The notes: a model not told the origin generated them from the letters alone. DNA of 64,000 nucleotides from Vermamoeba vermiformis (GCA_045837725.1 JBEWZL010000184.1:186001-250000); one strand, 5' to 3'. Shown: positions 3,202 to 27,514, counted from the first letter of the stretch. Numbers and translations are program-made.

Positions 3202-4393
3202 ATGCCTCGACAGTTATTCACCATTCTCATCGTAGCATATTTTACGAACGTAAGCCAAACAAACAAGTATCGGAGAATTCATTGTTTAACGACAATTCGC
3301 CAGGTGATCTACACTCAACAATGCCAAACAAATGACTTCGTCGTCACTAATGGCCAAGAAGTGTTTTTAAAAATCACCTCCACGAAAGATGTGCAAGCGT
3401 GTGGCGTCAATGTTTGGCATCCAAACTCTTTCTTTGTCTACCGACGGGAACATTCAGATTACTAACGGCAACACCATCTCTCTCCCCGACAACAGTCCTT
3501 CAAACGAACTCCAATCCCTCACTCTGAACAACGGAAAACTCTCCTTGTCACAAGATGGCGGCGTCGTCACTCTGCCAGACGACAATTCGGCCAACGAACT
3601 CCAGCAACTGTCACTATCTAATGATGGAACGAAGGTCGTGTTGAATTTGGGAGGTGGATCTGCCGATTTAACTCAATTCGCCTGCGCAGCGGGAACGTCC
3701 TCCTTGTGCACACGTTTAGCGCAGCAAGAATCCCTATTAACCAGTCTTCAATCAACAGTAACGCTACTCAGTACCAAGCTGGACTCCGTGCAACAACAAC
3801 TTTCAGACACGAACGCGCAGTTGGTGGGAACAATTATTCCCCACGGATCTGCCAACCTGCCGTCAGGATGGCTTCTTTGCAACGGAGATGCGATCAGCCG
3901 ATCCACTTATAGTCGCTTATTTGCCGTCATTGGCATCACATACGGTCTTGGAGATGGAATTTCAACGTTCAACCTGCCTGATCTCCGCGGAAGGACTGTT
4001 GTTGGCTCTGGTGCTGGTGCCGGATTGACCAACAGAACAATCAACACCAAATTTGGTTCAGAAACTGTGTCTCTGGCCGTGGAACAGCTGCCCTCTCACA
4101 ACCATCCTGGAAGTGTCACAGCGAAGGACGGCGGGCACGACCATGGAAATTTGATTGGGCGGGATAGCACTAATTACTTTCCTGCGTACTCTCAGGGCGG
4201 AGGAAGTGGCGCAGGCTATTACTTGAGACCGAACACAGAATTGCCAAATGCTGGAAATGGTGGAGCTATCCCATGGAAGATGACAGATCCTGCTCCTCAC
4301 ACGCACTCCGTTAACGTGGCCAGTCAAGGAAGCGGTGCTGCTGTCCCAATTCTACCCCCTTCAATAACTTTAAACTATGTAATTAAATATTAA
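3202..4393 (+). CDS. Secreted fibre-like protein: signal peptide, NELQ stalk repeats, coiled coil, phage tail-collar domain and HxH tip; frame break at ~3415
   Basis: ATG 3202 MPRQLFTILIVAYFTN, intron 3250-3303; collar motif GTIIPHGSANLPSGWLLCNGDAISRSTYSRLFAVIGITYG...FNLPDLRGR; HNH/HDH/HTH motifs; ends LNYVIKY. Confidence 0.8.
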
Positions 4394-4461
4394 ATCACAA
4401 CTGAACAAAGTTCATTTTTTCTTTTGACGAGCACTAGCAACCACACCTGTCATTGCACGAC

Positions 4462-5144
4462 ATGAGCGAGTTTGACCACTGTTTCGATTCTGAAGAGCTC
4501 ATCGGTACGTTTATAATATGACCATTGATAGTGCGTTACTAATATAGCTAAACTAGCCAGCGGGAATTATCCTGATTTTGGCAGGATCATTTACTTCGCG
4601 TCAAAAAAACCAAAAGATTTAAATATAGCCTTGATGAAATCCGATACTGCTACATTATTACTACCAGACCTCGATATTGAAGTAATTTTGCGAATTTTTT
4701 TGGATAGATATTGATATTTCGTTTCAGATCCCCCCTGGCAAGGGCAGGTATACAACAATTGAAGAATTTTTGAAGGAAATATACGAAGATTTACAGCATT
4801 CAGGGTAATCTCAACTTTAATAAATTGACATGTTTGTAACACCGTTTGATCCAGCGGTTACTTTGTGGATCCAGTTCAAAAAGAGAATATGCGCAAGAAA
4901 CTCGATTCATTGTATAAAGTAGGTTAAATATATGATGAATCTGATATTTAGATACTTATGCTTGCAGATGATGCGTGGCGAAGAAGGCTGCAAGTTAGTG
5001 GTGCGAGATCCGCTGGGCAACATCAGCATCGAGTGCGACGATGATAATAAAGTGCAAATAGAAGACTTTGTGCGCTCACACGATGATTGTCAAGAACTCG
5101 GTGTACCTTACGGCATTGAAGTCGCTAGACCGCAAGGAGGCTGA
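4462..5144 (+). CDS. ZPR1-like protein (single A/B-type module, no zinc finger); multi-exon
   Basis: Spliced peptide GRIIYF...DLNIALMKSDTATLLLPDLDIEIPPGKGRYTTIEEFL...KLVVRDPLGNISIE...FVRSHDDCQELG matches the ZPR1 A/B domain pattern. Confidence 0.65.
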
Positions 5145-5380
5145 CTTGTGATTGTTAATAAAACCACACTTCTTAATCCCAGTAATTTATTAATACCATC
5201 GAATATAATAGATAAGTTTAATTGCATTATTCACAGAGTCCTGAAAATGTCGCGTCGGAGCAAAAATTTTCATTTTTTTTGTTGGCCGCAGCGACGTTGT
5301 CTATTTATTCGTGCTTCGAACACTGAAGACCACGTAGCAACACTTTTAATCACCAGTGATTTCATTTAATTGGCAGCACC

Positions 5381-6528
5381 ATGCTCAGATTCGTGACACG
5401 AGGTACCATCCGTTCCTTCTTATCACAAAATGGCAAGAAAAATCAAGGGATAATTTTTGAGGTAATAATGGCGTTCATAAAATATTATTATCATACCTGG
5501 GCAATCAAAGCGATTTATTAAAATAATAGTAATTATTTGATCTGAACTCATTATTATTTTCAAATTGCAGCTTTCACATAAGAAGAAAAAGACCACATCC
5601 CTTGGTTTTTCTGCCACTTCATCTCAGAATCGCTCGCTCTTTACCAGTTTCAAAACAAGAGAAAGCGATCCGTTGAATAAAAACCAGAAAGATACTAAAG
5701 ACCCTTTCAAAGACAAGCCCGTGGCCAAAGAAGAACTTGCACGCGTCACTAGAACATTGGACGAAATTTGTGACGTCAATCAACTGCAACAAGAATCGAA
5801 AGAGAAGATCATCGAGATCTGGAAGGCTTTCCATCTCAACAAGCACTGTGTCTTTGCTACTATTGACTCCGATACATGGACCAAGCTCAGTGCTCGCATG
5901 AAAGAATTCCCTATGTTCATTTTGCCACGTACGTACTGTGCGATCCAACTGTTGTAGATCCACCATTTCACGCACCCCACTAATACTTCTACAGCATCAT
6001 ATTGACTTCATATTTATAGTACCTAAAGGCAAGGGCGTTGAGTTCATGTTAGTACAACATCAAGGCGACACATCGCTATTCACTTCATTGGCAGAGTTCA
6101 AATCTCAAGGTGTTCAAGCCAAACCTGCCTTGAAATTGAAGCACTACGCTGAACTTCAACACACTAAGGGCGTAAGTATATTATATAAAGTACCTTATAA
6201 ATTTATATTAACATGATTGTAGGTCGTTTTGATGCGTGGTGAACTTGATCCAGAGCGCGTTACACTTCTCGAAGCACAAGTAAGATAAATAAGTAAGCTA
6301 TGCATTTGAGTGTATTATACTAACCAATACTATTTGTAGTTGCTCGTCAATCAGTTACAGTTGCACTACTTGGATCCACCACGTTTGAAGCACGTTGAGA
6401 CATTCAACAAGAGACCCAACGAATTCGATTACAACGTCTTGCTCGATCAGATTTCAGTCTCTGAACTCAATCAACAAGGCGAGAAGACTGAAGCTAAGAA
6501 TAATACGAATGAAAACAAGAGCTCCTAA
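5381..6528 (+). CDS. ATP11: Mitochondrial F1-ATPase assembly factor ATP11/ATPAF1; multi-exon
   Basis: Arg-rich presequence; TLDEIC...IIEIW...FPMFILPVPK...FTSLAEFK...KGVVLMRGE...LVNQLQLHY...VETFNKRPNEFDY. Confidence 0.88.
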
Positions 6529-6687
6529 TAAATCGTTCAACTGTAATTAACCAATCAACCATTTCGATTTCTGTGGCCCTTGTTCATGCTACTTAGTTAC
6601 ATTATTATCGGACATTCGTGTTAGCAGTAGCATTAATTCTCGCTCGCGTGTTGTAGTTGAAATAACGTCGCGTATTTATTACTCGTT

Positions 6688-7408
6688 TTAATCAGCGAGG
6701 TCACCAATGTAGTATTGCGACACCATATCTTCAACAGTGGCAGGGTGCTGTTCACCATAAAAGCCTGCAACAAAATTATCAGTACGAGGTGTATCAAGGG
6801 CGCGTGGTTCATGAACGCGCCAAATCGTCAATAAAATTACCATCAGTGTTATCATTGCCCGCGTTGATAAAGATCTTATCACCTCCAGGGTGGTGGCTAA
6901 TGTAAGTAGTAACGTCGTAGACCTGATTATAGGCATCAGTATTATGGAAGGAATATTTGAAAATGAGGTTAATGAAGTGGATCCGACGCGCCACTTCTAA
7001 AATGATTGTTAAAGCGTACCTTATTTTTAATAATCAACCAACAGTCTTCTGCGCTATTGTGCTCGGCAACTTCTTTGCGGGTGTACTTCTAGACGAGTAA
7101 CGTAATTAATTTTAATTGGTAATATCAACAAAATATCGCAGACATACCTTTCCAGTAACGGCAGGCTTCTTAATGGCTAAATAAATTATGAGCATTAATA
7201 TCAGTCGTTAAGCTATTGAACGACACGGGATCAGATCGTCACCGACGTTTCACGCCCGATACTTACCAGTAATAGTGGTCTTGTTGCGAGTGCTAGTAGG
7301 GCCACTGGTCAACTTTTTAATCAAAATCCAAATGGCAACAGCGGCAACAGCAACCAAAACGATATTGGATGTGCCGAAATCTGCAACGGTCGTAGCTTGA
7401 GTCGACAT
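6688..7408 (-). CDS. Cytochrome b5-like heme-binding protein with N-terminal TM anchor; multi-exon
   Basis: [36 protein letters not shown]...GFYGEQHP...YYIGDL; hydrophobic N-terminal segment. Confidence 0.88.
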
Positions 7409-7605
7409 TATGGTCTTTTTGTATAAAATATACTTGGTGGTGCTTCTCCTTAGGCGAATAAGACAAGCCTATCGCAGCAGCTGCGAATGATTTGGTCGTC
7501 CCAACCAATTTTGATGGTCAAATTTTTGTGGCCGAGCAAAACCAAGACTTGTTGTGCGATAAATCTTACTTTTAGTTTTACAAACACACAACTACAGTAA
7601 CCAAA

Positions 7606-8436
<831 letters not shown>

Positions 8437-8721
8437 AATCTGTTTTGTTATATTTTACTTGTATAATGGGACGACTTGTTCGTATATAAAGAGTGTTAAA
8501 CCTAAATTTGACCGAGATCTGTTTGTGCACGCGCCTTTCTCGGGCGACTAGCTTGCATTGCCATATAAACCTGCACGTTAGATACTATTGGTAGGCATTA
8601 GTCTGTGTTGTAATAGATGTTGTTCAAGCTTTGGTTCTTTATGTGAGCCCACACTGGCTGGCATAAAGGCGAAGGAAATTAAGTTGTTCGTTTTAAGTTT
8701 TTGAATTATTGACGGATCAAC

Positions 8722-9036
8722 ATGAAAGCTATCACTTGCTTGCTTATCACCGCCCTCGTGGCCGTGTGCTTGATACAATTGGCTTCAGCTGCTTTGCCTG
8801 TTAAGAACCTCAACAAGAAAGGAGTGAAGATTGGAGACAAAACCATCTGCCCTGTCAGCGGCAAGGTCATCACTGTTGCTGCGGATACACCCAAAGAACT
8901 CTATGATGGCGTTACATACTATTTTTGCTGCGCTCACTGTGCAGAGAAGTTCTTGAAGCACCCTGATTTATACGTTGATCCTCTCAAGAGCCACCCCGAG
9001 GTCCTTTTGACCCGTGAAGATGTATTAAATAACTAA
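8722..9036 (+). CDS. Small secreted YHS/TRASH metal-binding domain protein, intronless
   Basis: Signal peptide then CPVSGKVI...YDGVTYYFCCAHCAEKFLKHPDLY. Confidence 0.8.
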   Translation: MKAITCLLITALVAVCLIQLASAALPVKNLNKKGVKIGDKTICPVSGKVITVAADTPKELYDGVTYYFCCAHCAEKFLKHPDLYVDPLKSHPEVLLTREDVLNN

Positions 9037-9532
9037 TTATTAAATAGGATATTATTTGTGAATATAGGAAAATATTGAATATTATTTTCGATTTTTCTCG
9101 ATCAACCGGAGTTCTGATATTTCAGCATTACTAATTAATCCAGGCACACTAGAGCAATGGCCTATTCAGAACAAATAATGATTTCTTTTTTGGCAGCTAA
9201 CTAAGCAATAATCGAAAGGTCTTCTTGCAAGCACTGGAATCTTCGGCGCACTCCAGAAACAATACTTCAATTTCAACTGCAACAGGCTGTTACTGTGTAT
9301 TTGTCATCAACGGGTAGTCTCGAGACAGAAGATTCTAATCTGCGGAGCCGGAGATCGTATTTAGTTATTCGGGAATTCTTGGACCCTCCAAATTTACGTG
9401 GCATCGCGACTAATTATTATTCTTTCAAGACTTCCGGCAAATATAAATAGCAGAAAAAAATGGCAGTTTAATTCAACAATCAAAACAGTGTACAGCACCA
9501 CAAGTCTACAGCTCTTCAACAAGAACTACAAG

Positions 9533-10960
9533 ATGTCCGTAACTATTAAGATCACCTTCAACGACGACTTGCGCCGTGTTACCTTACCCTCAACTACTAC
9601 ATTCGACGAACTCAAGAACCGTCTTAGCCAAATGTTCTCCAACTACGTTTTGAGCAACCGTTTGAGCTACATCGACGACGAGGACGATCGCGTTACCATT
9701 CAAACTACTGAAGAGCTGCAAGAAGCTTTCCGCTTGTCTCGAGGAGGTGTCTTGCGTTTATTTGTCGAAGAGAATTTCGATGAAGAAGACGAAGACGCTG
9801 ACTACGAAGAACTTGACTCAGATGACGAATCTGACGACCGAGTACACTCTGCAATTTGCGACAACTGTGACGAAAGAATCGTCGGCATTCGTTACAAATG
9901 CGGAAATTGCGCCGATTACGATCTCTGCCAATCTTGTGAAAAGCAAGACGGTGTTCACGACGCCACTCACCTCTTCATCAAGATCCGCTCTCCTCTCTCT
10001 CCTTGGGCCTCACCCGTGAGGTAAGTTATTAATTTTACTTATTAAACAGACAAGAAATTGTATATTCCGTTGATGATCAGAATCTAATCATAATTCGTCA
10101 TTAGAGTTTTGTTGCCCAACTTGTACCCTCAACAACAACACCAACAATTGCCTTGCTGGTTCCGCCGCGCACAACAATGTGCTGCTCAGTACGCTGAATG
10201 CCAAAAGCAACGCGAAGTTCAACGTGAGCAATACGAACAACATGCTCGACGCGTCCAACAAGCTCGTCAACAATGGTTCGAACAACTTCAAGCTCAACGT
10301 GCCGCTCAAGCCTCCAATGGCTGCCCTCGTTTCGCCGGTCAATGCGACCGCCCTGCTACCTCCGAGCAATCTCCCTTCGCCAACTTCTTCCAACACTTGA
10401 TCCAACAGATCGAAGCACTCAACGAGCGCGAGGAAGAAGAGACCAACACCAACACCAATTCCAACAACAACAATAACAACAATACCAATGAAAACACCGA
10501 GCAACCCAACCCTTTCAGAGTTGTCATTCACTTCCGCAACAACGAAGAGCAAAAAGAGGAACAAAAAGAAGAGAAGACTGAACAACAACAAACTCAGCCT
10601 GACGTCACTTCCTCTGAAGCTCTCGTCGAGGATGTTGTTGAAGACGCTCCCAAGCAACAATCCTACCAACCCCAAGAGAACCAGCCTATTTTGACCGACG
10701 CCCAACCCGAGCCAAGTGCCCCTGTTGTTGAAGAGCCCAAGCAACAAGTCGTTGAACAAGCCAAGCCCGTTGAGCCCAGCGCACCTATCGTCGAGTCTCT
10801 GCCCGTTGAAGAGAAGCCTAAGCGCGAATTGACTCGCTTCGAACAGCTCTTGAACACTCTCGAAGACATGGGCTTCACTGACCGACGCAAGAACATTGAA
10901 GTGCTCGTCAGAACTTCTGGCAACTTGGAGGCTGCTGTTCAATCACTGATCTCTTTCTAA
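9533..10960 (+). CDS. p62/SQSTM1/NBR1-like selective autophagy receptor (PB1-ZZ-UBA); one intron ~10021-10104
   Basis: PB1 (IKITFNDDLRR...YIDDEDDRVTI), ZZ finger (HSAICDNC...RYKCGNCADYDLCQSC...H..HLF), C-terminal UBA (LEDMGFTDRRKNIEVL...GNLEAAV). Confidence 0.88.
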
Positions 10961-11224
10961 GCGATAGCAATACCAACACTTTAAACTGTTTTGTAACTAA
11001 GCATTCATATTGTACAAACAAACTAATCAAACATTGTAAATAGTTGAGATTCAGTAAAGCAACTTTATAAAACAAATGTGCGTCATTTTTGTGATACTAC
11101 AGCCTGCTTGTGCATTCAAAGGCACGATACCGAGAATAATCACGTGCTTAATTTCAAATTTGTTAAAATAAGTGCCAAGCTTCTGAGAGCTTCTGTCCAA
11201 CACGTAACAAACAGAACAACACAA

Positions 11225-13232
11225 ATGTTCAACATTCAAAACTACATTGACGGAAAGTTCCAAGACGCAGCAAGTGGCAAATGGATTGATAATTATGAGC
11301 CTGCCACGGGCAAGGTCTATTCTCACGTTCCGGATTCAGATGAGACAGATCTGCAACAAGCTTATCTCGCTGCTAAGAAGGCCTTTGCGAGTTGGTCAAA
11401 ATTAACCAAGGAAACACGATCATCTTATTTATACAAAATCGCTGACGGGATCGAGAAGAGATTTGTAAGTGACCTTTGGTTTAATACTGTTTTAACGAGA
11501 AGCTAATTAAAAAAATACGCAATAATATCAATCAAGCACAGCTTAGTATAATCAATAATGTCCGAGAAGTTGGAAAATATTGATAATATTTATTATTAGA
11601 TTTTCAATTATTCGTTGCATTTATTGAAAATTCCTGCGCATATTAACGGAGATTAATAGGATGAATTTGCTGCCGCCGAAGCTAAAGATACAGGAAAGCC
11701 ATTGACATTGGCTAAAAATATGGACATTTCAAGAGCCATCGCTAATTTTAGGTACGGATCCGCACTTTTCTAGTAATCAGGTTCAGTGCTAATATTAAAT
11801 ACTCGCAGATTTTTCGCCGGCGCCGTTTTACACCACGAAGAAATGTCAACGGAGATGGACGGCGTGGCCATCAATTACACAGTCAGACAACCAGTACGTG
11901 CCACACTGAATTTTACCTGCCATTTAAGTCTAATGAATTACTCTAATAATCGTTAATAGGTCGGTGTTGTCGGTCTTATCTCCCCGTGGAATCTTCCTCT
12001 TTATTTATTGTCCTGGAAGGTAGCACCAGCCATCTCAGGTACGTGTCACCCCTTCTATTGCGCACTATGACGTGCCTAACACAATACCAATCGCTAGTCG
12101 GCAACACTGTTGTTTGCAAGCCCAGTGAAATGACATCTGTCACTGCCTGGTTGATGTGTCAAGTCATGCAAGAAGTTGGTTTGCCGCAAGGTGTTGTCAA
12201 CGTTGTCTGCGGTGTAAGTATTATTAATAGTACAAGCATTGTTATGGATAATCATAATTAATATTGATGTATTAGTACGGCCACAAAGCCGGCCAAGCAA
12301 TGGTCGTGCACGAAGATATTCGATTGATTTCATTCACTGGCGGCACTAAGACCGCTGAGTCCATCATCAAGAGCAGTGCACCGTTCTACAAGAAGTTGTC
12401 GCTGGAGTTGGGTGGCAAGAATCCTAACGTTATCTTTGACGACTGCAATATCGATCAATGTGTCGAGACTACAATCCGCAGCAGTTTTCTCAATCAAGGA
12501 GAGATCTGTTTGTGTGGTTCGAGAATTTACGTGCAAGAATCAATCTACGAAGAGTTCTTGCGCAAATTTTTGGCAAAGATTCGTGAGATGAAGATTGGCA
12601 ATCCTTTTGAGGCCACTACCAATGTCGGCGCATTGATTACTAAAGAACACATGGCCAAGGTCTTGTCGTACATTGAAATTGCCAAGAAAGACGGCAAAGT
12701 CGAGATTGGGGGCGGCAGACCTGACAATTTGCCCGACGAGTTGCGTGACGGTTATTTTGTGGCCCCAACTGTCATCACTGGTGAGTGCTTTAGATCGACA
12801 AAGGTACACGTACAAAGGACTAATTTATGGTTCTTAGGTGTTTCACAACAATCAGCGTGCATTCAAGATGAAATTTTTGGTCCTGTGGTCACAGTGTCTA
12901 CTTTCAAGACCGAAGAGGAGGCCATTGAACTCGCTAATGGCGTTAAATACGGCCTCGCAGCGTGTGTTTGGACTGAAAACGTGCGTCGTGCCAATCGAGT
13001 CGCATTAGCACTGCACGCAGGCACTGTCTGGGTCAACTGCTGGCTCGCTCGTGACTTGCGGTAAGACCCAACTTGAGACTAGTACGTATTAATACGAGAG
13101 CTAATGGATTGATTGCACAGAGTTCCATTCGGTGGCACTAAACACTCGGGCATTGGCCGTGAAGGAGGTAACTTCTCGATTGATTTTTACACCGAGCACA
13201 AGACCGTCTGTTTGAAGTACGCCGAGAAATAA
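11225..13232 (+). CDS. ALDH8A1: 2-aminomuconic semialdehyde dehydrogenase (ALDH8A1-like); multi-exon
   Basis: [67 protein letters not shown]. Confidence 0.9.
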
Positions 13233-13409
13233 TTTTTGATGCATTGACAGCTGAGTAACATTGTAGTAATAAACCAAGCACTTTAATTAACGAACACGTG
13301 CTGTTCTCCCTATTGATAGCATCTTTTTGTGGATCGATCCTCGTTTAGTGCAAACTTTACCAGCTGTTAAGTGGTACTTTGGCTCTATGAACTCGTGCTT
13401 GCTCATGCA

Positions 13410-14260: not shown

Positions 14261-14385
14261 TATCTATATAATATAAGCTATTTGATTCTTATAGAGCTTT
14301 TGTGTATTATCACAAAGGGAGGCAATAAAATAATTAGCAAAATTTCCTCGGTCATTATTTTCAGCACCAAATCGATAAAATCACC

Positions 14386-16007: not shown

Positions 16008-16084
<77 letters not shown>
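16008..16084. repeat. Poly(dT) tract, 77 nt
   Basis: Uninterrupted T run between divergently transcribed genes. Confidence 0.95.
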
Positions 16085-17673: not shown

Positions 17674-17920
17674 TGACATTTGTTCGTCGGAGATCGAACT
17701 CGATCGGAATTTTGATCCGCTGTTTGTACAAATTGTAAATAAAGTCTACAACGTTTCCATAGTCAATATTATTATATTACATTAAATGTCATCAATGGAA
17801 TACAGGTATCTTGTTTATCGAAACTTTCTTGATTTTGTGTGACCAGTAATTTTTTAGTTGTTAATTTATCCCGCCGAGCTCACAGCGACTACAAGTAAAC
17901 AGTATTATTGATGTTTAATT

Positions 17921-20181
17921 ATGGACATACAAAGCTTGCTTAATAATAAGAAGAGGCGGCTCTCCGAAGGTGACTCACCGCCCACAAAGCGCCAAAAAAT
18001 GGACGAAGAAGTTTTTAGCGACGAAACGTTAGAAGAAGATGACGACAGCTTATCTCCTGATAATATGGTTCGTAGAAAATACTTAAAATTAATAAATATT
18101 AACAAGAGATTTTTACACACTTTTTTAATTAAACCTTCGGAGATGCAAACTTTAATTTACTTTGACACCGTGTCAAATGAATCTTTGTTGGCACCAATGA
18201 CTAATATTAATTATGCTCTAAATACAGAAATTCACCGACCCCTCAATCATTGCTGCGAGACTCGAAAACGACGAAGAAGTAGATCTGACCGGCATTGAAT
18301 ATTTAATGTTAAATGAAGAGCGGCTCATGCGCAGTAATATCAATTGGAATCGACTATGGAATGCTCTCAAGCACAATACTACGCTAAAGAGGCTCGACAC
18401 AGGCTTTTGTTATGGCCACAATATTTGTAACCCTATTGAGGACAGCCACTGCATCGAATTAGGCGAAGCTTTGAAAGAAAACAATACATTAGAGGAGTTA
18501 TATCTGGATTGGCATAGCTTCACTTCTGTGGGCGTGGGTTACATAGCTGAAGGATTGAAAGTCAACAAAAAACTTCATTCGTTAGTTTTGGCTACCAATG
18601 ACTTGGACTTCAGTGCATTCAAAGCACTTGGCGAAGCATTGGCAGTGAATACTGCGCTCAAGACACTCGATGTATCGCAGCTTGGCAGTATTGAAGGAGA
18701 TCCAGCTGATTTTTTGGTCTTCTGCGAGGCTCTGAAAACAAATACGACTCTGCAGCATTTAAATATGGATGAGTGTTGTCTTGATGAAGAAGTCGATGAT
18801 GCACTGCAAGAGGCTCTTAAAGTCAATCCGCGTCTTGAAGTTGACCAACCGACAATCCTTACAACACCTGGCCGTAAAAAGAAGAAGCAGAAAATCGATC
18901 AAGATGAAGCTAGTGCTGCTGATGAGGCCGGAGCTAAGGCGTCTAATGTCAATAGCATGGCAGAAGGAGCTAAGAGTGACGCTGAAGATCTGCAGTCGCC
19001 GTTCAGTGAACGATCCGCTCGTCGCGCCAAATTAACAGCCCGTGCTAATATTGCACCGCTGGTGGCTAAGAAGACTAGAAAGAAGCGCAAGAGTAACGAC
19101 ACTGCCAATAACGAAGTTAAAATTAGCGAAAGCGAAGCTAAAAATAGCAGCAACGAAATTAAGAACGAGGATCTGCCCGCCAAAGTCCAAAATGACGCTA
19201 ATAATAACGACGTTAAAGAACCTATCACTAAGAAGGCTAGGAACACTAAGACGGCTCTTAATAAGCAGCAGAACACTGTTAAGAGTTTTGGACTTCGACG
19301 AAAACAACGAAAAGCGAAGTTGTTTGCTCAAAGCATGATCAAGCCGTTGATGATTAGGAAAACAAGGAAGAGAAGAAAGAACGGCGAGAATACTAACGAA
19401 GAAGAGACGAGCAAGAGCGATAATATTGATAATAAGAGCCAAGCTAGTCCGACTAGACTGCAGCGAAGAGCGAAATTGCTTGCTGAAGCTAGTATAACGC
19501 CGCTAGTGCTCAAGAAGAGTAGGAAGAAGCGAATGGCGTTAGAAGAAGAGAATAACAACAATAAGAAGAGTTATTCGCGGAAAAATAACGGCATTAAAGA
19601 AGAGAAGGTGATGAAGCCGAGGAAATACATGAAGAAGCGAGAGAATAAGAGCGAAGACAAACAAATTAATAACGCGAACGTTCTTAATAAATAACAACAA
19701 TAATATCGAGATTAAAGTGCCTGAAAATCAACGAAAGGCGAAATATTTTGCTCGCGCCAATATTACGCCCTTAATGATTAGAAAGACGAGGAAAAAGAGG
19801 AAAGATGCAACAAAGGAGAGCAAAGAAGGCATTAATGAAGAGAATACTACGAAGAGTACTGAAAGGAGAGCGAAATTAGTGGCGCGAAAATCAATTAGGC
19901 CGCTAGTACTTAAAAAAACGAGAAAGAGACGAGAGAATAGCGAAGAAAAGGCTGAAAAGAGTAGCCCTATTAAAGAAAAGCGAGAAGTGAAGGTCCCGCG
20001 AGGTCCTGGTAGGCCGCCAAAGAAAAGAGGATTTAAGGGCGAATCCACATCCAGATCAAACCAAGAAACGAAGTCAAAGCAGATTATAGCGTTCAAACCC
20101 AAGAGACAAAGGCACAAATTTATACCTTATCAAGTTAAGCATAAAGAGCTACCTCGACGACGAACAAAGAATGAAAACTGA
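17921..20181 (+). CDS. RI/NLRC3-type LRR protein with basic repeats and AT-hook; frame break at ~19690
   Basis: Repeated (E)ALK.NTTL..L.L LRRs 18360-18840; five RRAK...PL..KKTRKKR repeats continue across the break; PGRPPKK AT-hook. Confidence 0.75.
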
Positions 20182-21450
20182 ATTTTGGACTTCTGATCGG
20201 ACGTATGTAGAATAAATCAACAATTGAGCGAAATGACGAATATTAATGTCTTGTTATTAGTTTACTATCGAGATTAATAATAATACGATTGCTGCATCGA
20301 TGTCTAATCGAAGATTTTGATCATTATTAACTCAAGTTGGATTTTACGTTAGATATCTTACTCAATAGCCTCTGGGATGATAGACCGGATATGAAGAGTC
20401 GTGCATGCATGTACACGAGCAACGGAACTAGCCACGCCACGTTTGACAAGTGTTTCCGCGCCTCCCAGTCGATTGACGATCGCTGTACCGTAGAGAAAGC
20501 CGTCATATAGTACTGATAATGACAATAACAATGCGATTAAATGCTTGTGAGATGTCGGCGAACCAGTACTGAAGTCCTTAAGAATGATTTGCTTTAGTAA
20601 ACGGTGGATCGGAGTTGTAACTCTTTCAATGCTCAGCTACACCTCAAATAGGACCTATTCCGTATTTATCGAGCTCTTGTCACATTCTGTAAACAATCTG
20701 TCCGTGTAAAGGTTTACGTGTATTTTCGACCAGTTCACTCACGGTGCTAATTATTATGATCTCGTTACCGCAGAAGAGAGCACAGCTCGTGCTTCCTAAT
20801 TCATATAATTCTTATATATACTTGTATGACTATCGAGAATAGGCTGGTAGCTTTGCCAAGCATGCAGCTTGGAGCTTCCTCAAGTTGGGCATGGAGGTAA
20901 TCCGTCTATAATTAGTCTGATTCCGATATTATTTTAGGCAACGTATAACCTCCAATCACATATAATTTAGCAGTTCGTATCAGTTGTTCTACAATTTTAA
21001 AAATTAATCGAATCTGCTTCTTTGTTCAATAACAGTTATTCCTCTTAATTTGAATAGTTGTGAATTCCATATTTTCTTTCCGTAAATATTTGTATGATCT
21101 TGCTTTAATTAATTCATTCATAACTTACCGGATGTATCTAAGTTACTTTCCAGCAGCCGATTTTGTGTTCGGCGCGTGAAATAATTGCTTTAACATTGTT
21201 TAATCGGTTAAATTTATTAATCACTCTGAAATCTGCCTTATAAGGCATTTAAAAGCTATTTTAAAATTCGATCTCGAATAATTTTTCCGCCTTTTACTCC
21301 CTACGAGGTGCATGGACAGGAACAATATTTTTTTGGCAGGTTCTTCGTAATCATTTAATACAGCACACAGGATTGCGACACCACACCTCGCCACAGTACA
21401 TCCGAGTTTTGTAATTCGACCTCAATTTCAAAACTGTTTCAGTTGCAGCA

Positions 21451-24400
21451 ATGTCCTCGACACCACTGTTGAGTCAAAGGACCCGTCGTCACTCAGTTGA
21501 TGCATTTACTAGTCCTCGCAGCGAGCACTTAACTGCTTCTGAGGCAGATTTAGGTCGCGAACGAGATCTTTCTCCGTTACGCAGTCCTTCAGATACTATT
21601 TATCCACCTAGACCATCAAGCGTAGACAATACACCTACTACTAAGAAGCGACGATTAACCTGGAGCACAGTTAAAAGCCACTTAAACAGGTCAGGTCCAA
21701 TTACGCTTCCAGACTCATGGAAAAATTCATCCTCCGATTCCATTTCAAAACGCAGCTCGGTACGTACTTTACGAATAATATTATTATAGTAGTGCATAGA
21801 ATCTCGCCTTTAACTTCATTCTGTTCCAATTCCAAACTTGTAAACTTTGCTCGATCTCCATGCAACTTGACTAATTATCCTATTTAGAGCTTTAAGATAT
21901 CATCCCATACAGACGTAAGTGTATTATAGCTATCATTCATTTTGTACTTAATTTGACGGTCTTTGAACCCAGTCCGGTACCGAGTCATTTTCCGAAGAAG
22001 AAATGGAGTCAATTGATGCGCTATTGGCTCAGTTAGTGTCTGAGAATCAAGGTAAGAGATTAGAGATTAAGGAATTGCTATCAGATTCATTTGACAAGAA
22101 TTAAGTAATTTGTGACTCACATCTGATTTATTACCTCATTTAGAAAAAGGCTTTGTCGACAACTTCTTATGGACCAGCAGCTATTTCATCGAGTCAGTAG
22201 CACTATTAGAACGTCTTATCGATTTGTATCCTTTATCAACCTAAAATTGAATTACTTTCTAATTGCGTTCTAGTATTTTTAGACCTTAACTCAACGGCTT
22301 AGGTACCACAGACCTGCAGGCGACATTGATGTGGCTTCGGAAATGGTTACGAGGTTCAGGTAAGTCAATTTATCAAATACTCTCAATCGAATTTTATACG
22401 TCTATATTTAGCGCTCGCATCTAACTTACTCGTGCCTAGACTCATCAATACGATTAAGAAAATGATCGACATGCAGTGTCATACATCAAATGAGACTTCA
22501 ATAACATGGCACAACAGACTTTTGGCATTTATCGACGAATTGAACAAAGGAAGCGAATCTGATCAGAGTTGCGCTGCACATTTGAAGCAGAGACTCGATG
22601 AGATTAAAGGAAGCACGAAGCCAGTGGAGAATAATGAAGTTCAGAAATCTCCTTCTCTGATTGGGGAAGCGAATCCAGGCAAGGCGGATGCAGTTGCTTA
22701 TGTTTCTAGCGAGAAGTTCAATATTATGCAAGACAGTGCTATTGACATAGCAGAACAGCTTACTTTAAGAGACTACGAAATGTTTCAAGCTATTTCTATT
22801 GAAGTGTTTCAGAAGAAACGATTCGAAAAAGAAATGGAAGATCTGACTTCACCTTTGGGCTTGTTTATTGCTAAGTTTAACGAGGTACCTTTCAAATTCT
22901 ATACTCCAATTAATAGACCTAATCTCGATATCAGATTTCCCTTTGGATTGGAACGCAGATCGTTTCTGCTTCAAACAGCGACGGAAACAAAGAGCTCATT
23001 GCGCGCTTCATCGAGATTATGCGCGAGCTCAGAAAGTTAAACAATTTCAATGCGGTTATGGCTTTCTACTCCGCACTTAATCTCGGCTCAGTCTCTGGAT
23101 TCGTAACCAGATGCTTTGCTGCTCTGCCGGATGATCTGGCGCAATTCTTTAATCAGATTAAAAAGTTGATGGACCACTCAATGAACTTCAAATCATACAG
23201 AGAGACACTCGAGATGGCTGAGCCTCCATGTATTCCTTATTTGGGTAAGTCGAAATAACCCGATAAATAATTCCGCAAATCGGTCATTTTCAGTTGAAAT
23301 CGATATTAATTTGCTTATTTAGGATTAATTATGCGTGATCTGATGCATCTCGAAGAACTTCCGTCAACAGAAGATAACATGATTAACTGGCACAAATTGT
23401 CACGTGTTGGCAAGACCCTTGCCCAGCTCGCAAAATTTCACAAGTCCCCCTATCAATTCGCGGCTATTCCTCACATTCAAAAGTTCTTGCGGAATATTCC
23501 CAAGTACAGCGTGATATTGAGCGAGAATCAGCTGTACACATTGTCCCGCGCCATCATCAACGACGAGGCTGATGCTAGCGAGGCCCTGTCCAGGATAGAC
23601 GCGCCTAAATTGATCCCCACGACCTCGGACACTAATCTGCACGAGGCCCACAGCGACCACGACATGTTGCCCGACAGAAATGCGTTGTTCTCTGTGCCGC
23701 CCTGGGTCATCAAACGTGAGGTGCGCGATGAAGACGGCAACAGAACGACATTTGAAGAGGTGATTGGCGAGCACACTGTGATCTGCATCTTCATGCGACA
23801 ATTTGCTTCGTAAGCAGTTAGACATCCTGGTGTAAATGATAGGAAATTTACTTACAATTGTTTTTTTTGAATTAGCCCGCCAAAGTCTGCCTCAACGTTA
23901 AGTCAGATCAAGCCATTTTTGAACGAGTTAGGTGTTAAACTCATTGCCATTGGCAGTGGGAACGCTAATTCAGCGGCTGGATTTAAAATTCAAGCCGGTT
24001 TTGGTACGTGGAGTCACATCCAGCTTCGAATCCACAATTACTAACCATGAATCTCCAGAGGGCGAGCTCTTCTTCGATGAGGCACTCCATCTTATAGAGG
24101 ACTTTAAGGTCAAGCGCGGTTGGAACAAAGCTCAAGGCAGAAGAAATTTGAATCGCTCAAAAATCGCCTCTATTCTTGGATGCGACGAAAATGAGGGCTT
24201 AGGCGACGTAAAGTAAGTCGGACATAGCACTATAATATCTTCTTTATTGACACTATGCTTAATAGTCAACTTGGCGGTACATTCTTGTTACGCGGAGAAA
24301 AGATCTTGTTCGAACATTTGGAGCAGTTCGCGGGCGACAATGTGGACCCCATTCAGATCTTAAGGAAAGCAGGTGCTGGTCAAGAACTGCTTGATCGTAT

Positions 24401-24725
24401 TGGCCTCGATACCCCCAAGTTCAACGCCGGTACTGCTGATGTTTCGAAAACTGAAAAGAAGATCCAAAAACTCGAAGAAAAGCTGTCGCGCTTACGTTCA
24501 AAGTCGTCTACTGCCTCTGATAGCGCCAAACAACAGACTAGCGACAATGCAGGCATTGCTACGATTAAGAAGGCTATCGTCAATCTGAAGGCGAGTTTTG
24601 GTAAGGCAAAGTCTGCATCGCCTGAAATTAAGCGCATTAGAGACCAGCATAAAGAAGCGATGATTCAAATCAAATTGGAATATTACAAGAAAAAATTAGA
24701 TGCCGAGCAACACATCTACCAGTAG
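21451..24725 (+). CDS. RasGEF (REM + CDC25 domain) fused to a C-terminal AhpC/TSA-2 (PRXL2-like) thioredoxin-fold domain; multi-exon
   Basis: REM FVDNFLWTSSYF..LLERLIDLY; CDC25 DIAEQLTL.DY, LNNFNAVMA, NFKSYRETL..PPCIPYLG, INWHKL; then VICIFMRQF, LGVKLIAIG, QLGGTFL, HLEQFAGD. Confidence 0.85.
22226..22302 (+). other. U12-type (minor spliceosome) GT-AG intron
   Basis: 5' site GTATCCTTT; branch CCTTAAC at 22284-22290, 12 nt from the 3' end; removal restores ...LIDL|YHR. Confidence 0.85.
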
Positions 24726-25075
24726 AGAGTTGTTGCGACCTGGAAAACATAACATGTAAATAGGTGTACAATAAAATGGTTAATATAGCCTTGTTGGAAG
24801 ATCGGGAGATCAATTTGCTGGCAGATCGAGCGCGGAGTGACGGCAGTGCTGTGGTTTTGATTACTACAGTATCAGCATCAAGAATGATGTCTGATTATAC
24901 GGAACTTATAATATTGCAAATAAGGCGCTGAATGGTGCTACACAACTGTCTTCTCAGCGGAGTTGAAATTTCTTAATTCGGAGTTTGTTGGTGTGATTGG
25001 TGTGACACGATTGCAAGTCATTTTTATTCCAACTTTGATAACGAATACAACACAAAGTATATTTTGATCGTCATA

Positions 25076-25485
25076 ATGTCAACGACAACTCAACAAGCAT
25101 CGACAACCAACCGAGATGTGTTCAACACCGGTGGTTATTCTACCGAGCCTAACACCGTTGCTTTGAAACGAAAACCTAATTGGGCCCTAGTTACACCAGC
25201 TCTTGCAGGTAGCACTACTGCATTAAGTAAGTATATTCGACTATAAGTTGATTTTTAAATTAATTATTGGTGATCTCACTCGTTCACTGAACAGCTTGGA
25301 TCATTACACGTAAATATGCACCGAAGAAGACCGGTCTTATAGTAGGCACTGTCATTGCCGGATTCGCAATTCATGCCATAGCAACTATGTACGCGTTCCG
25401 ATCCCTTATTTTCTTAATTTGTACATATTTCTGACCGTTATAATTTAGGGGCTACGCCACATCTAATGAAAATACTAGCAAATAA
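25076..25485 (+). CDS. Small 2-TM hypothetical protein; 3 exons
   Basis: MSTTTQQ...KPNWALVTPALAG...|WIITRKYAPKKTGLIVGTVIAGFAIHAIATM|GYATSNENTSK with canonical introns. Confidence 0.6.
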
Positions 25486-25708
25486 TTGTATTTAAATAAA
25501 TTTGTAATATTCTACGACAAAACAGACGATCCTTAGACATCTAGCTTCTATTACGTTACAAGCCAATATTTTGGCTTATTTTCAGAAACTTAACGATATT
25601 CTTTCGACTATTATCGATATTCAAACAGCTCTATATTTAATACAAGAATTTATTGTGGATCCAGAGTCTATGAACAGATCATCCTATTTACTTGCGAGCA
25701 CACTATAA

Positions 25709-26288
25709 TTAGTCCTTCATGTCCTCTGAATCAGCACCGCGCATGTACAAGACGTTGTTGCATCGAATTAACACTTCACCCAAGTTACCAGCAAACTTTC
25801 CGTCAATAAATTCTTCAGTGTTGGCCAACTATCGATAAATCAGTAAATATGCATATTAATAATAATTGCAATATGGCGATTTATGGCTGCACCGATTCAT
25901 TGCTGAAGCACGATCGAGCCAAAAAAATTAATAAATTTTTGTAATAATTTTAATGAGCCTAGAATACTGCCAATAATTCTAATAATATTATATTAAAATT
26001 ATATACATACCCTCAAGTTCATATAATTATCAGTTGATACTAAAACGCCTTTGTATTCCATTCCCCACTTCAGCTTAACGAGAACGGATTTGCCGCTGAG
26101 TTCTTTCAAAAAGGGCTTAGGGTTAACCAACGTGGCCTATATTAATAATAAATAATTAATATTAATAATATTCGATCGCTTCTGAATAAAGAGCGAATCC
26201 ACAAACTAATATCGTGATCGTCGCTGTTTGATTATTTCATCATATTTCCTAATAATATTAGCGAATATCTAACAATACTTACGGCCAT
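25709..26288 (-). CDS. SNRPF: Small nuclear ribonucleoprotein Sm F; 3 exons
   Basis: [48 protein letters not shown]...[13 protein letters not shown]. Confidence 0.96.
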
Positions 26289-26516
26289 AGTGGTCTTGCT
26301 GCGTTAGTTTGTGGTGAAAGTGCTGTTTTGCTTTTGCTAGCCTTTTTCCGCGCGCAACATGACCGAACATTTTTCAGCTTTGACCCCCTACGAATACTCC
26401 AAACGTATATACTGAACCATACATATTGAAGTAAGTTGTGCAGTGTGAACTAGAAAGAAATAGCGACAAAACTAAGTGCTAGCGGTAATATATTTTACTT
26501 TATGACAGCGATCGCG

Positions 26517-27514
26517 TTAAGGATAATAGGTGGCGACCAATACAGGATGTTGCACAGCGGTCTGAGAGTTCGGTGGAGTGTTGTAGGTGTGCGCCAGTAC
26601 GTAGTATTGATAAGTGCCTGCAGCGGGTACTTGATACACCGCCACAAATGCACAATTCAACGTCCACGTGCCAGCAGGCGAGGTGAAGTTCGGTGAGCCC
26701 AAGTCACAGATGCCGGCATTGTCTGGGGTTGTAGGAGTGGTGCCTGTACGCACTTCGACCCAGTAAGCCGTGTTTGCAGGACTCTGTACCGTTATGCGAG
26801 CAGAAAAGTGCAATACAATCGTGCCATTGGCAGGCACGGCGATAGATTGGCTGACAACAACTTGCCAAGTCGCTGGTGGTCCAAACCCTGCGGACACTGA
26901 GACATCGCTACCAACGACACTAACCATGCGCGGAATTGGCAGGGTAACTTGATTGGTGTCGGAGATAGACAAGGTATTGTCGGTTAATGAAAGTGTTTGA
27001 AGTTCGTTTGTGGATGACGCATCTGGCAGGGTGATTGAATTTCCATTGGCGATTGAAAGCGTCTTTGAATCAGGCGACAAAGACAGATTTTGCAATTCAT
27101 TCGTGGCGCTTGCATCGGGTAATTGCACAGCATTGCCATTTAGAATTGCCAATTCGCCGTTGTTGAGAGTCAAAGTTTGAAGTTCATTAGTAGCGCTGTT
27201 GTCGGGGAGTTGAATTGAATTGCCATTGCTGAGCGATACCTCGCCACTAGCACTGAGAGATAACGATTGCTTGCCATTTTGAATTTCAGAGCAGATGTTG
27301 ATTCCTCCGCACGTCTTGACCTCAGTAGGCGAGTTAATAGTCAAATATTCCACGCCATTATTTTGCACTGAGAATTGACTCGAAGAGCATTGTTGGGCAA
27401 GCACTAGAATTATATATAATGAGCAAAAACCACCGGAGGCGATCAAGTTTGAAGCTTACCTTGCACTGAAGCGCCAATCAGCAATAAATAAATAAGCACG
27501 CTGGTGTTATGCAT
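26517..27514 (-). CDS. Secreted fibre-like protein (paralog of 3202-4393) with NELQ stalk repeats and a beta-rich head
   Basis: MHNTSVLIYLLLIGASVQ|VLAQQC signal peptide with intron ~27459-27405; three LPDxSxTNELQ repeats; beta-strand-rich C-terminal domain ending VATYYP. Confidence 0.75.

What the first reader, a model, noticed from the sequence alone, without database searches (positions are those of the whole stretch)
3202..27514. Eukaryotic secreted fibre family with shared cap/stalk and swapped heads, one a phage tail-fibre tip
Seen: two genes 22 kb apart on opposite strands (3202-4393 +, 26517-27514 -). Each has a signal peptide interrupted by a spliceosomal intron, a homologous cap (QQCQTNDFVVTNGQEVFLKITSTKDVQACGVNV vs QQCSSSQFSVQNNGVEYLTINSPTEVKTCGGINI) and ~29-aa stalk repeats (LPDxSxxNELQxLSL...NG..I.LP). 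After the stalk they diverge completely: one has a coiled coil + tail collar + HxH tip, the other a beta-sandwich-like head. Knowledge: a constant stalk with a variable receptor-binding head is how trimeric phage and injection-system fibres are built. From memory (not a search), the NELQ repeat resembles repeats in Bacteroidota fibre-like surface proteins. Inference: a horizontally acquired, domesticated modular adhesin/lectin system, perhaps for prey recognition or the cell/cyst coat.
Basis: partly seen in the sequence, partly recalled or inferred. Interest (0 to 1): 0.82.

Follow-up and report, generated by a model that had tools for sequence, protein, structure and literature searches.

The report
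Secreted trimeric fibre genes, phage-like parts
A eukaryote carries two related genes for secreted three-chain fibre proteins that share a cap and a bacterial or phage-type stalk but end in different binding heads, and one of the two genes is broken.

Summary
The two genes are real paralogs (tblastn E 1.7e-19) lying among core eukaryotic genes. Each has a signal-peptide exon, a GTAAGC..AG intron of 54 or 56 nt, a Cys-bearing cap and 29-31-aa NELQ repeats. Gene 1 ends in a long helix, a phage tail collar domain (Pfam E 2.9e-22) and an HxH tip related to T4 gp12 and cyanophage tail fibres. Gene 2 ends in a TNF/C1q-like jelly roll (model-level match, Z 11.5) and is predicted to form a full-length homotrimer (score 0.89, best control 0.00).

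It removes the third conserved Cys. No RNA read lay on gene 1. Gene 1 is probably a recent pseudogene.

The family is larger than these two genes. 30 of the best 150 hits to a cap profile carry the cap behind a signal peptide, and their heads fall into about 11-12 sequence types, including C1q-like and Collar. NELQ stalks without the cap are common in Bacteroidota-type proteins and on viral contigs.

Best reading: a domesticated, modular lectin/adhesin fibre family with bacterial or phage-derived parts. Function and expression are untested.

The parts
3202..3249 (+). Gene 1 exon 1: start codon and signal-peptide part (MPRQLFTILIVAYFTN)
3250..3303 (+). Gene 1 putative intron, 54 nt, GTAAGC..CAG, phase 0. 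It is in frame and stop-free, so it is not required for the frame.
   Evidence: The splice-site type matches host introns seen. No RNA read covers it.
3304..3414 (+). Gene 1 cap in frame A (VIYTQQC...ACGVNV), holding the first two conserved Cys
3412..3418 (+). Frame break of gene 1. Frame A runs on to a stop at 3463-3465, and the homologous reading continues in frame B. The third cap Cys is missing.
   Evidence: The DNA contig shows no difference here.
3412..3457 (+). Candidate 46-nt GT..AG stretch that would restore the frame if spliced. It has a non-consensus donor (GTTTGG) and would remove sequence homologous to coding sequence of relatives.
   Evidence: Not supported by any read.
3416..3664 (+). 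Gene 1 stalk in frame B: a half unit plus two NELQ units (30-aa spacing)
3698..3808 (+). Gene 1 long helix (residues 97-133 of window:3410-4390), a coiled-coil candidate
   Evidence: block-mean pLDDT about 74-93
3827..4000 (+). Gene 1 phage tail collar domain (PF07484)
   Evidence: E 2.9e-22, 78.8 bits against a cut-off of 24
4001..4393 (+). Gene 1 tip with three HxH motifs (residues 230, 243, 297), then the stop codon
   Evidence: weak Gp10_C match; alignment to 8kec covers two of the HxH motifs
27460..27514 (-). Gene 2 exon 1: start codon and signal peptide (MHNTSVLIYLLLIGASVQ plus one base)
27404..27459 (-). Gene 2 intron, 56 nt, GTAAGC..TAG, phase 1. It is required to join the start codon to the cap frame.
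   Evidence: Not tested with RNA.
27267..27403 (-). Gene 2 cap (QQC...TCGGINIC) with three conserved Cys
26937..27266 (-). Gene 2 stalk: a half unit plus three NELQ units (spacings 29 and 31 aa)
   Evidence: Periodic inter-chain contacts appear in the trimer model.
26517..26936 (-). Gene 2 head, a TNF/C1q-like jelly roll (residues about 156-294), then the stop codon

Best explanation
The two genes are paralogs of a family of secreted homotrimeric fibre proteins in a eukaryote.

Each protein has four parts:
- a cleavable signal peptide;
- a family-specific N-terminal cap of about 35 aa with three conserved Cys;
- a stalk of 29-31-aa NELQ repeats of the type found in Bacteroidota and on viral contigs;
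- a C-terminal trimeric head.

Inferred mechanism. Three chains intertwine along their whole length. The head binds a ligand, most likely a surface glycan of bacteria or of the cell's own coat. The Cys cap ties the chains together or anchors the fibre. This works like phage receptor-binding fibres, Bdellovibrio MAT fibres and C1q or collectins.

Gene 2 is intact and carries a TNF/C1q-like head. Gene 1 carries a helix, a phage tail collar and an HxH tip, but a frame break between cap and stalk has recently inactivated it.

The stalk and the Collar head most likely came from bacteria or phages. They were joined to a eukaryotic signal-peptide exon and cap, and the family then diversified by exchange and divergence of heads.

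Shown: the gene anatomy, the homologies, the eukaryotic setting and the size of the family. Model-level only: the head fold of gene 2 and the trimer. Inferred: secretion, direction of transfer, ligand and biological role.
For: Paralogy and anatomy.

Eukaryotic setting.
- Tfb5 ends 177 nt upstream of gene 2.
- ATP11, PB1-ZZ-UBA, Sec39, SPRING1, RasGEF and PX genes are in the window.
- A spliced, expressed gene starts about 70 nt after gene 1, on the same independent DNA contig.
- GC 0.49-0.50 and GC3 0.48, against host exons at GC 0.40-0.50 and GC3 0.39-0.61.

Phage and bacterial parts.
- Collar: E 2.9e-22.
- 26 PHROG families match gene 1; 20 of the 25 shown are tail proteins, best E 2.7e-29.
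- PDB sequence matches: cyanophage A-1(L) tail fibre 8kec E 2e-8, T4 gp12 E 8e-7. Foldseek returns the same entries.
- H230 and H232 are invariant, and H243 and H245 nearly so, in 32 aligned sequences.
- NELQ repeats of the same 29-aa period occur in long uninterrupted ORFs with Collar, Peptidase_S74 or Fib_succ_major ends and on 57 viral-contig loci.
- 3 of 3 organism-named NELQ hits are Bacteroidota.

Gene 2 head.
- AF2 block-mean pLDDT over the head is 56-81.
- VIA-align: Z 11.5 to the Pgp3 C-terminal domain, 10.5 to the TNF-like lectin PLTL, 8.9 to the Bdellovibrio Bd2734 tip, 8.7 to BclA and 8.1 to C1q.

Trimer.
- Score 0.89; best of 3 controls 0.00.
- The mark was reached by 21 of 30 proteins solved as pairs of one chain and by 0 of 23 solved as single chains.
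- The runs agree in at least 95% of contacts, and the partner's pLDDT is at least 82.
- Contacts run through cap, stalk and head.

Family.
- The cap profile finds 204 proteins at E<=1e-3. 30 of the best 150 match the cap part.
- 25 have a signal peptide directly before the first Cys, and none has the Bacteroidota N-domain.
- 20 heads fall into 12 BLASTP clusters.
- P0083 is cap + helix + Collar.
- P0007, P0190 and P0203 have C1q or BclA_C-like heads.
Against: - Gene 1 is frame-broken and lacks the third conserved Cys.
- No read of three RNA runs lay on 3010-4416, while the next gene had a depth of 1.7-5.5. This is weak evidence: most reads were only 95-99% like the window, so they come from another strain, and coverage was low.
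- Gene 2 could not be tested for expression or splicing.
- The trimer score may partly reflect memory of solved TNF-like trimers. The job also had three copies, unlike the calibration, and on eukaryotes only 1 of 7 proteins with no older solved relative reached the mark.
- The gene 2 head has no Pfam hit and no phmmer hit among 303 family proteins. Its fold rests on a model of middling confidence.
- The Collar tree is unresolved. Gene 1 pairs with a Myxococcales protein at SH-aLRT 88, and P0083 sits elsewhere. Donor and number of acquisitions are therefore open.
- The cap-bearing relatives come from unnamed short contigs, so their eukaryotic origin is assumed.
- No ligand, localisation or phenotype data exist.
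Confidence: 0.6

Rival explanations
1. The proteins are structural parts of the cell coat, cyst wall or an extracellular matrix. The fibres would be cross-linked through the Cys cap, and the heads would serve self-assembly rather than recognition of foreign surfaces.
For: - BclA and ExsFA, spore-surface proteins with the same head fold, are among the matches (Z 8.7 and 8.8).
- The cap has three conserved Cys.
- The family has many members.
Against: - High head diversity, about 12 sequence types among 20 heads, is more typical of recognition modules.
- Lectin-type matches rank as high or higher: PLTL Z 10.5 and the Bd2734 tip Z 8.9.
Confidence: 0.2
2. The family is native to eukaryotes, or moved from eukaryotes or their viruses into bacteria and phages. 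Or the pieces reached this eukaryote through a giant virus or virophage rather than directly from bacteria.
For: - The cap has no bacterial or viral relative.
- The head fold resembles the C1q-like heads of collagen-like proteins of giant viruses.
- Virophage OLV genes with a Phage Tail Collar Domain are tabulated in PMC3671162 (passage read).
- The Collar tree is unresolved.
Against: - NELQ stalks are far more numerous, longer (500-2600 aa) and more varied in bacterial-type uninterrupted ORFs.
- Collar relatives number at least 2874 among the 8000 candidates scored. Every organism-named row in the 120 listed is bacterial.
- No cap-bearing protein was found on viral contigs, though that test was weak.
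Confidence: 0.12
3. Both loci are decaying relics of a transfer, with no present function. Gene 2 is intact only by chance.
For: - Gene 1 is frame-broken and had no RNA reads.
- No expression data exist for gene 2.
Against: - Gene 2 keeps a 313-codon spliced frame with signal peptide, all three cap Cys and a head that models confidently as a trimer.
- Many relatives sit on contigs barely longer than their ORF, as transcripts would. For example P0188 has 463 aa on 1476 nt and P0195 has 325 aa on 1047 nt. In these the signal peptide is continuous with the cap.
Confidence: 0.08
4. The genes are bacterial contamination or an assembly chimera.
For: The best sequence relatives of the stalk and the Collar domain are bacterial or viral.
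Against: - An independent contig of a DNA run spans 2604-5026, joining gene 1 to an expressed, spliced eukaryotic gene. The run may be the assembly's own source.
- Tfb5 abuts gene 2.
- Gene 2 needs a spliceosomal-type intron.
- Composition matches the host exons.
Confidence: 0.02

Closest known systems
Bdellovibrio mosaic adhesive trimer (MAT) fibres (PMC10769870, passages read)
   Same: - Surface or secreted trimeric fibres with a conserved N-terminal part, an intertwined beta stalk and swapped C-terminal tips, some of them TNF-like lectin tips.
- The Bd2734 tip (8okw) matches the gene 2 head at Z 8.9.
- They are used by a predator to recognise prey surfaces.
   Different: - MAT fibres are bacterial, about 600-1100 aa, and have their own N-domain.
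- The window proteins have no NCBIfam Bdello_MAT_N hit. Only the Bacteroidota-type relatives hit it, weakly: E 6e-6, 26 bits against a cut-off of 60.
- Here the genes are eukaryotic, short (about 300 aa), have introns and carry a different cap.
Phage short and long tail fibres with a collar domain: T4 gp12 and the cyanophage A-1(L) tail fibre 8kec
   Same: The gene 1 C-terminal half shares the Collar domain and HxH motifs.
   Different: There is no phage context. The protein has a eukaryotic signal peptide, a cap and NELQ repeats in front. The gene is frame-broken.
Bacteroidota NELQ-repeat surface proteins, some named 'tail fiber protein' by their source (for example P0002, P0016, P0027)
   Same: The same 29-aa NELQ unit, and the same principle of variable C-terminal ends, including Collar.
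   Different: They start with a conserved N-domain of about 140 aa (QAPQxFxYQAV...) that the window genes lack. They carry 6 to more than 15 repeats, have no Cys cap and have no introns.
C1q, collectin and other TNF-superfamily secreted trimers; spore-surface BclA
   Same: A secreted protein with an N-terminal Cys-bearing region, an extended trimeric stalk and a jelly-roll trimeric head. Family members P0007, P0190 and P0203 hit Pfam C1q or BclA_C.
   Different: The stalk is not collagen (no Gly-X-Y). The gene 2 head has no sequence match to C1q.
Plasmodiophora brassicae secreted candidate effector Pb4_109755, annotated 'Phage Tail Collar Domain' (PMC9530463, table passage read)
   Same: A eukaryotic secreted protein with a Collar domain.
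   Different: It is only a table entry of 191 aa. Its sequence was not compared here, and no cap or NELQ stalk is known for it.

Membership tests
Pfam PF07484 Phage Tail Collar Domain (gene 1) | Profile match above the gathering score | tested here: met
   78.8 bits against a cut-off of 24, E 2.9e-22, covering the whole 57-position profile
T4 gp12-type receptor-binding tip (gene 1) | Conserved HxH motifs after the collar. That they bind metal on the three-fold axis is recalled, not tested. | tested here: met
   HNH at 230, HDH at 243, HTH at 297. H230 and H232 are invariant and H243 and H245 nearly invariant in 32 sequences. 8kec aligns over two of the motifs.
T4 gp12-type receptor-binding tip (gene 1) | Homotrimer | not tested
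The monomer model of the tip has low confidence.
TNF/C1q-like jelly-roll superfamily (gene 2 head) | Jelly-roll fold of about 130 aa | tested here: met
   Model-level only. Z 11.5 (rmsd 3.1, 122 aligned) to 4jdn_A, 10.5 to 9ib6_A, 8.8 to EDA 1rj7 and 8.1 to C1q 5hba. Block-mean pLDDT over the head is 56-81.
TNF/C1q-like jelly-roll superfamily (gene 2 head) | Sequence membership (Pfam C1q, TNF or BclA_C) | tested here: not met
   No such Pfam hit at E<=1. Other family members (P0007, P0190, P0203) do hit C1q or BclA_C.
TNF/C1q-like jelly-roll superfamily (gene 2 head) | Homotrimer through the head | tested here: met
   Prediction only. Score 0.89, best of 3 controls 0.00. The mark was reached by 21 of 30 proteins solved as pairs of one chain and by 0 of 23 solved as single chains. 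The lowest-error contacts are in residues 156-293. The pass may be from memory of solved trimers.
Bdellovibrio MAT superfamily | MAT N-terminal domain (NCBIfam NF053851) | tested here: not met
   No NCBIfam hit for either window protein at E<=0.01
Bdellovibrio MAT superfamily | Intertwined trimeric fibre with an exchangeable C-terminal tip | tested here: met
   Trimer model with contacts along the whole chain. 12 head clusters among 20 heads.
Bacteroidota-type NELQ-repeat proteins | 29-aa repeat with LPDxSxTNELQxLS | tested here: met
Bacteroidota-type NELQ-repeat proteins | Conserved N-terminal domain of about 140 aa before the repeats | tested here: not met
   It is replaced by a signal peptide and Cys cap. 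None of the 25 cap-bearing proteins has it.
Defence collagens (C1q, collectins) | Collagen Gly-X-Y stalk | tested here: not met
   The stalk consists of NELQ repeats

The most novel reading that the evidence does not exclude
A lineage of microbial eukaryotes runs its own diversified set of secreted trimeric recognition fibres. A eukaryote-invented Cys cap is fused to a phage or bacterial stalk, and the heads are interchangeable (TNF/C1q-like, Collar, and about ten others). This would be an innate prey or pathogen recognition system analogous to C1q and collectins, assembled from phage receptor-binding parts.
Probability: 0.3. Interest if true: 0.8.

Novelty: new variant of a known kind. Interest (0 to 1): 0.6.

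Why it matters
Modular trimeric fibres with swapped tips are how phages and predatory bacteria recognise cell surfaces. Finding the same building plan, partly with the same parts, in a secreted gene family of a eukaryote would give two things:
- a clear case of foreign receptor-binding modules being domesticated behind a host signal peptide;
- a testable candidate for how a microbial eukaryote tells bacteria apart.

The about 35-aa cap is a marker for the family. It recovered 30 cap-bearing representatives among the best 150 hits, and most of their heads have no Pfam match, so they are candidate binding domains still to be characterised.

Tried and rejected
- **Whole genome:** none is held.
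- **Run index:** no RNA holder is listed for window 3000-4700.
- **First guess 'animal' dropped.** The ALDH8-like neighbour is 89% identical to an unnamed metagenome protein. The next hits are 61% and 59% to unnamed EukProt transcriptomes, then 57% to a fungus and 56% to an echinoderm. The lineage is poorly sampled and I leave it unnamed.
- **Cap alignment A2** was too variable for a metagenome scan.
- **Metagenome scan with gene 2** gave 30 loci. The three read in detail (L002, L004, L010) are long bacterial-type ORFs without a cap.
- **GTDB scan with gene 1** gave only 2 marginal loci, because the patterns were too specific.
- **Cap-only scan of viral contigs:** nothing, a weak test (one search was an error because the query was too short).
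- **Collar tree of 48 rows:** unresolved.
- **phmmer of the gene 2 head** against 303 family proteins: no hit (one search printed nothing).
- **ESM Atlas:** best score 0.83, leads only.
- **The 46-nt GT..AG stretch as a rescue of gene 1: judged unlikely.** Its donor is GTTTGG, while all 6 host donors seen have A at the third position (and the downstream gene's sequence).
- **Literature.** Searches for 'tail collar' with rotifer, HGT, metazoa or amoeba, for 'phage tail collar' + eukaryot + secreted, and for 'NELQ' found no description of this family. The only related items are the Plasmodiophora table entry and the virophage OLV entries.
- **Not read:** the supplements of PMC10769870 (further tip domains) and of the HGT compendia PMC13342648 and PMC12637581. 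They may list related genes.

Full report
**1. What is in the sequence**

Gene 1 (+ strand) starts at ATG 3202. Exon 1 (3202-3249) encodes MPRQLFTILIVAYFTN. It is followed by 54 nt that begin GTAAGC and end CAG (3250-3303). The cap follows from 3304: VIYTQQCQTNDFVVTNGQEVFLKITSTKDVQACGVNV.

Gene 2 (- strand) starts at ATG 27514. Exon 1 is 27514-27460. The intron is 56 nt, GTAAGC..TAG (27459-27404, phase 1). Exon 2 runs to the stop at 26519-26517. The spliced CDS is 942 nt and in frame.

Gene 2 needs its intron, because the unspliced ORF 26517-27455 has no ATG before the cap. Gene 1's 54 nt are in frame and free of stops, so that intron rests only on splice-site form and length.

Host introns seen here have donors GTAAGT, GTACGT and GTAATT. 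They are about 46-62 nt long, with one of about 205 nt. Two were seen as RNA joints next to gene 1. The others come from aligning an 89%-identical ALDH protein to the window.

The two genes are clearly homologous. Gene 2 protein against gene 1 DNA gives E 1.7e-19, with 53% identity over 79 aa in the stalk and 40% over 30 aa in the cap. The reverse comparison gives E 5.5e-18. There is no third copy in the window.

The repeat unit is (L)PDxSxTNELQxLSL...NGN..., with spacings of 30 aa in gene 1 (two units) and 29 and 31 aa in gene 2 (three units). Each set is preceded by a half unit.

**2.

The cap frame runs into a stop at 3463-3465. The stalk, helix and Collar lie in another frame (ORF 3371-4393). 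tblastn places the switch between 3389 and 3405.

I set gene 1 by eye against gene 2 (TCGGINIC SEIQN GKQSLSLS), P0190 (ACGVNVC EQLQQ GVQQLSLE) and P0010. Gene 1 reads ACGVNV, then one base, then GIQTLSLS. The six codons that include the third conserved Cys are missing except for one base.

A DNA contig assembled independently from a public run spans 2604-5026 with no difference and no indel at a word depth of about 446. That run may be the assembly's own source. The break is therefore not an obvious assembly error.

A 46-nt GT..AG stretch (3412-3457) would restore the frame. Two things count against it. Its donor GTTTGG differs from all 6 host donors seen, which have A at the third position (and the downstream gene's sequence). 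It would also delete sequence that is coding in relatives.

Three RNA runs carrying the same species label gave no read on 3010-4416, while the neighbouring gene at 4417-4818 had a depth of 1.7-5.5. This is weak evidence. 45 of 49, 62 of 67 and 32 of 34 laid reads were only 95-99% like the window, so the RNA comes from another strain, and coverage was low.

I read gene 1 as a recently inactivated copy. The 327 codons after the break are still open.

**3. The setting is eukaryotic**

Pfam-supported neighbours:
- Tfb5, ending 177 nt upstream of gene 2;
- ATP11;
- a PB1-ZZ-UBA (NBR1-like) gene;
- Sec39/NBAS;
- SPRING1;
- RasGEF and PX;
- an ALDH8-like gene with several introns.

The gene just after gene 1 is expressed and spliced, with a 52-nt GT..AG joint at 4504-4555.

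GC is 0.50 for gene 1 and 0.49 for gene 2, with GC3 0.48 in both. Host exons have GC 0.40-0.50 and GC3 0.39-0.61.

My first guess of an animal did not hold. The ALDH fragment is 89% identical to an unnamed metagenome protein. The next hits are 61% and 59% to unnamed EukProt transcriptomes, then 57% to a fungus and 56% to an echinoderm. The organism belongs to a poorly sampled eukaryotic lineage, and I leave it unnamed.

**4. The heads**

Gene 1:
- Collar PF07484, E 2.9e-22, and a weak Gp10_C match.
- 26 PHROG families match; 20 of the 25 shown are tail proteins, best E 2.7e-29.
- PDB sequence matches to the cyanophage A-1(L) tail fibre (8kec, E 2e-8) and T4 gp12 (E 8e-7). Foldseek returns the same entries and the T4 gp37 needle.
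- The AF2 model has a helix at residues 97-133 (block-mean pLDDT about 74-93) and a confident Collar. The tip is of low confidence, as expected for one chain of an intertwined trimer.
- Three HxH motifs. Two of them lie on invariant or nearly invariant columns of a 32-sequence alignment.

Gene 2:
- No Pfam, NCBIfam or PHROG hit.
- The AF2 monomer has block-mean pLDDT of 56-81 over the head and below 50 in the stalk.
- Residues 153-294 aligned against 48,161 PDB representatives match TNF/C1q-like jelly rolls:

| Match | Z |
|---|---|
| Chlamydial Pgp3 C-terminal domain (rmsd 3.1, 122 aligned) | 11.5 |
| TNF-like lectin PLTL | 10.5 |
| Bdellovibrio Bd2734 tip | 8.9 |
| EDA | 8.8 |
| BclA | 8.7 |
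| C1q | 8.1 |

- In the viral structure library the same head resembles the C1q-like ends of phage proteins and of collagen-like proteins of giant viruses.

**5. Trimer**

Three copies of gene 2's mature protein gave a score of 0.89 (runs 0.88, 0.90, 0.89), with the best of 3 controls at 0.00. The mark was reached by 21 of 30 proteins solved as pairs of one chain and by 0 of 23 solved as single chains. The runs agree in at least 95% of contacts, and the partner's pLDDT is at least 82.

Confident contacts run through the cap (residues 1-49), periodically through the stalk, and through the head.

Caveats from the tool:
- the job held three copies, unlike the calibration;
- on eukaryotes only 1 of 7 proteins without an older solved relative reached the mark;
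- a pass may reflect memory of solved TNF-like trimers.

It supports a homotrimeric fibre but does not prove one.

**6. The family**

A word-based search with gene 2 found 43 proteins. A profile of the cap and first half unit (A2, 7 rows) scored against 1.84 billion representatives found 204 proteins at E<=1e-3, 38 at <=1e-10 and 5 at <=1e-30.

Of the best 150, 31 match the cap part of the profile. One of these (P0289) has no Cys cap on inspection, which leaves 30. A pattern check found 25 proteins with a hydrophobic signal peptide directly before the first cap Cys, after dropping one false match (P0204). None of them has the Bacteroidota N-domain.

I cut heads after the last NELQ unit, or at residue 60 where no unit was found. 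This gave 20 heads of 70 aa or more, in 12 BLASTP clusters at E<1e-3. Two caveats apply:
- the five-member cluster may be linked through leftover cap sequence;
- gene 2 and P0005 are one diverged type by full-length alignment.

Recognisable head types:
- Collar: gene 1 and P0083, which is signal peptide + cap + helix + Collar with no NELQ unit;
- C1q or BclA_C-like: P0007, P0190, P0203.

The rest have no Pfam match.

All cap-bearing relatives are unnamed and sit on short contigs. Many contigs are barely longer than the ORF: 463 aa on 1476 nt, 325 aa on 1047 nt, 326 aa on 1080 nt. In these the signal peptide is continuous with the cap. That is what spliced transcripts would look like, but I could not fetch their DNA.

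**7. Where the parts come from**

NELQ units of the same period fill long uninterrupted ORFs of 500-2600 aa. These begin with a signal peptide and a conserved domain of about 140 aa, and they end in Collar, the S74 chaperone of trimeric tail spikes, Fib_succ_major and other domains.

The three hits that carry an organism name are all Bacteroidota. NELQ repeats also lie on 57 loci of contigs classed as viral. In one of them the neighbouring ORF matches a tail-fibre PHROG.

Collar relatives number at least 2874 among the 8000 candidates scored. A tree of Collar plus tip (48 rows) is unresolved. Gene 1 pairs with a protein its source names as a Myxococcales tail fibre protein (SH-aLRT 88, not starred). 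P0083 lies elsewhere, and a single origin is not excluded.

The cap has no relative outside the signal-peptide-bearing group.

My reading: the stalk and the Collar head were acquired from bacteria or phages, the cap and signal-peptide exon are host-side additions, and the heads then diversified. This rests on distribution, not on a rooted tree.

**8. How it most likely works**

Inferred: the protein is secreted. Three chains intertwine, and the cap's three Cys tie the chains together or anchor the fibre. The head binds a surface ligand, most likely a glycan.

The closest working models are Bdellovibrio MAT fibres, which carry TNF-like lectin tips and are used on prey (PMC10769870, passages read), phage receptor-binding fibres, and C1q or collectins. 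The window proteins fail the defining N-domain of MAT and of the Bacteroidota proteins, and they lack a collagen stalk. They therefore work like these families without being members.

**9. Novelty**

My text searches found no description of this family. The nearest items are a Plasmodiophora secreted candidate effector listed with a Phage Tail Collar Domain (PMC9530463, table passage) and virophage OLV genes with that domain (PMC3671162, table passage). I did not read the supplements of the MAT paper or of the HGT compendia.

I rate it a new variant of a known kind, with interest 0.6. It is held back by the broken gene 1, the lack of expression data and the unnamed relatives.

Noticed in passing
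window 4465-4820: The gene directly after gene 1 is expressed in all three RNA runs and shows a 52-nt GT..AG joint (4504-4555) and a second joint of about 46 nt near 4680-4726. Every covered position that differs does so in all reads, so the RNA runs labelled as the same species come from a strain 1-5% different from the window.
   Followed up: partly
window 56354-58763: Two adjacent long ORFs (482 and 311 aa) without a Pfam match. They carry a regular Cys-containing repeat pattern and end in a hydrophobic membrane-span-like stretch followed by KRRQ. This is possibly a large repeat-bearing surface protein.
   Followed up: no
window 18222-19694: A 490-aa ORF with a leucine-rich-repeat-like first half and a Lys-rich repeated second half. 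It has no Pfam match, and the region has strong AT skew (0.27).
   Followed up: no
window 5458-5569: RNA reads skip 110 nt with non-canonical ends (GA..GC) and one extra letter, inside the ATP11-like gene. This is probably an intron whose ends are blurred by strain differences.
   Followed up: no
protein P0182: A cap-bearing relative whose head of about 400 aa is built of repeats with a recurring FHC.D..C motif. It has no Pfam match, so it is another head type with no family assignment.
   Followed up: no
proteins P0002 and P0016: The N-terminal domain of the Bacteroidota-type NELQ proteins weakly matches NCBIfam Bdello_MAT_N (E 6e-6, below cut-off). This hints that these proteins and the Bdellovibrio MAT fibres may be distantly related.
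   Followed up: no
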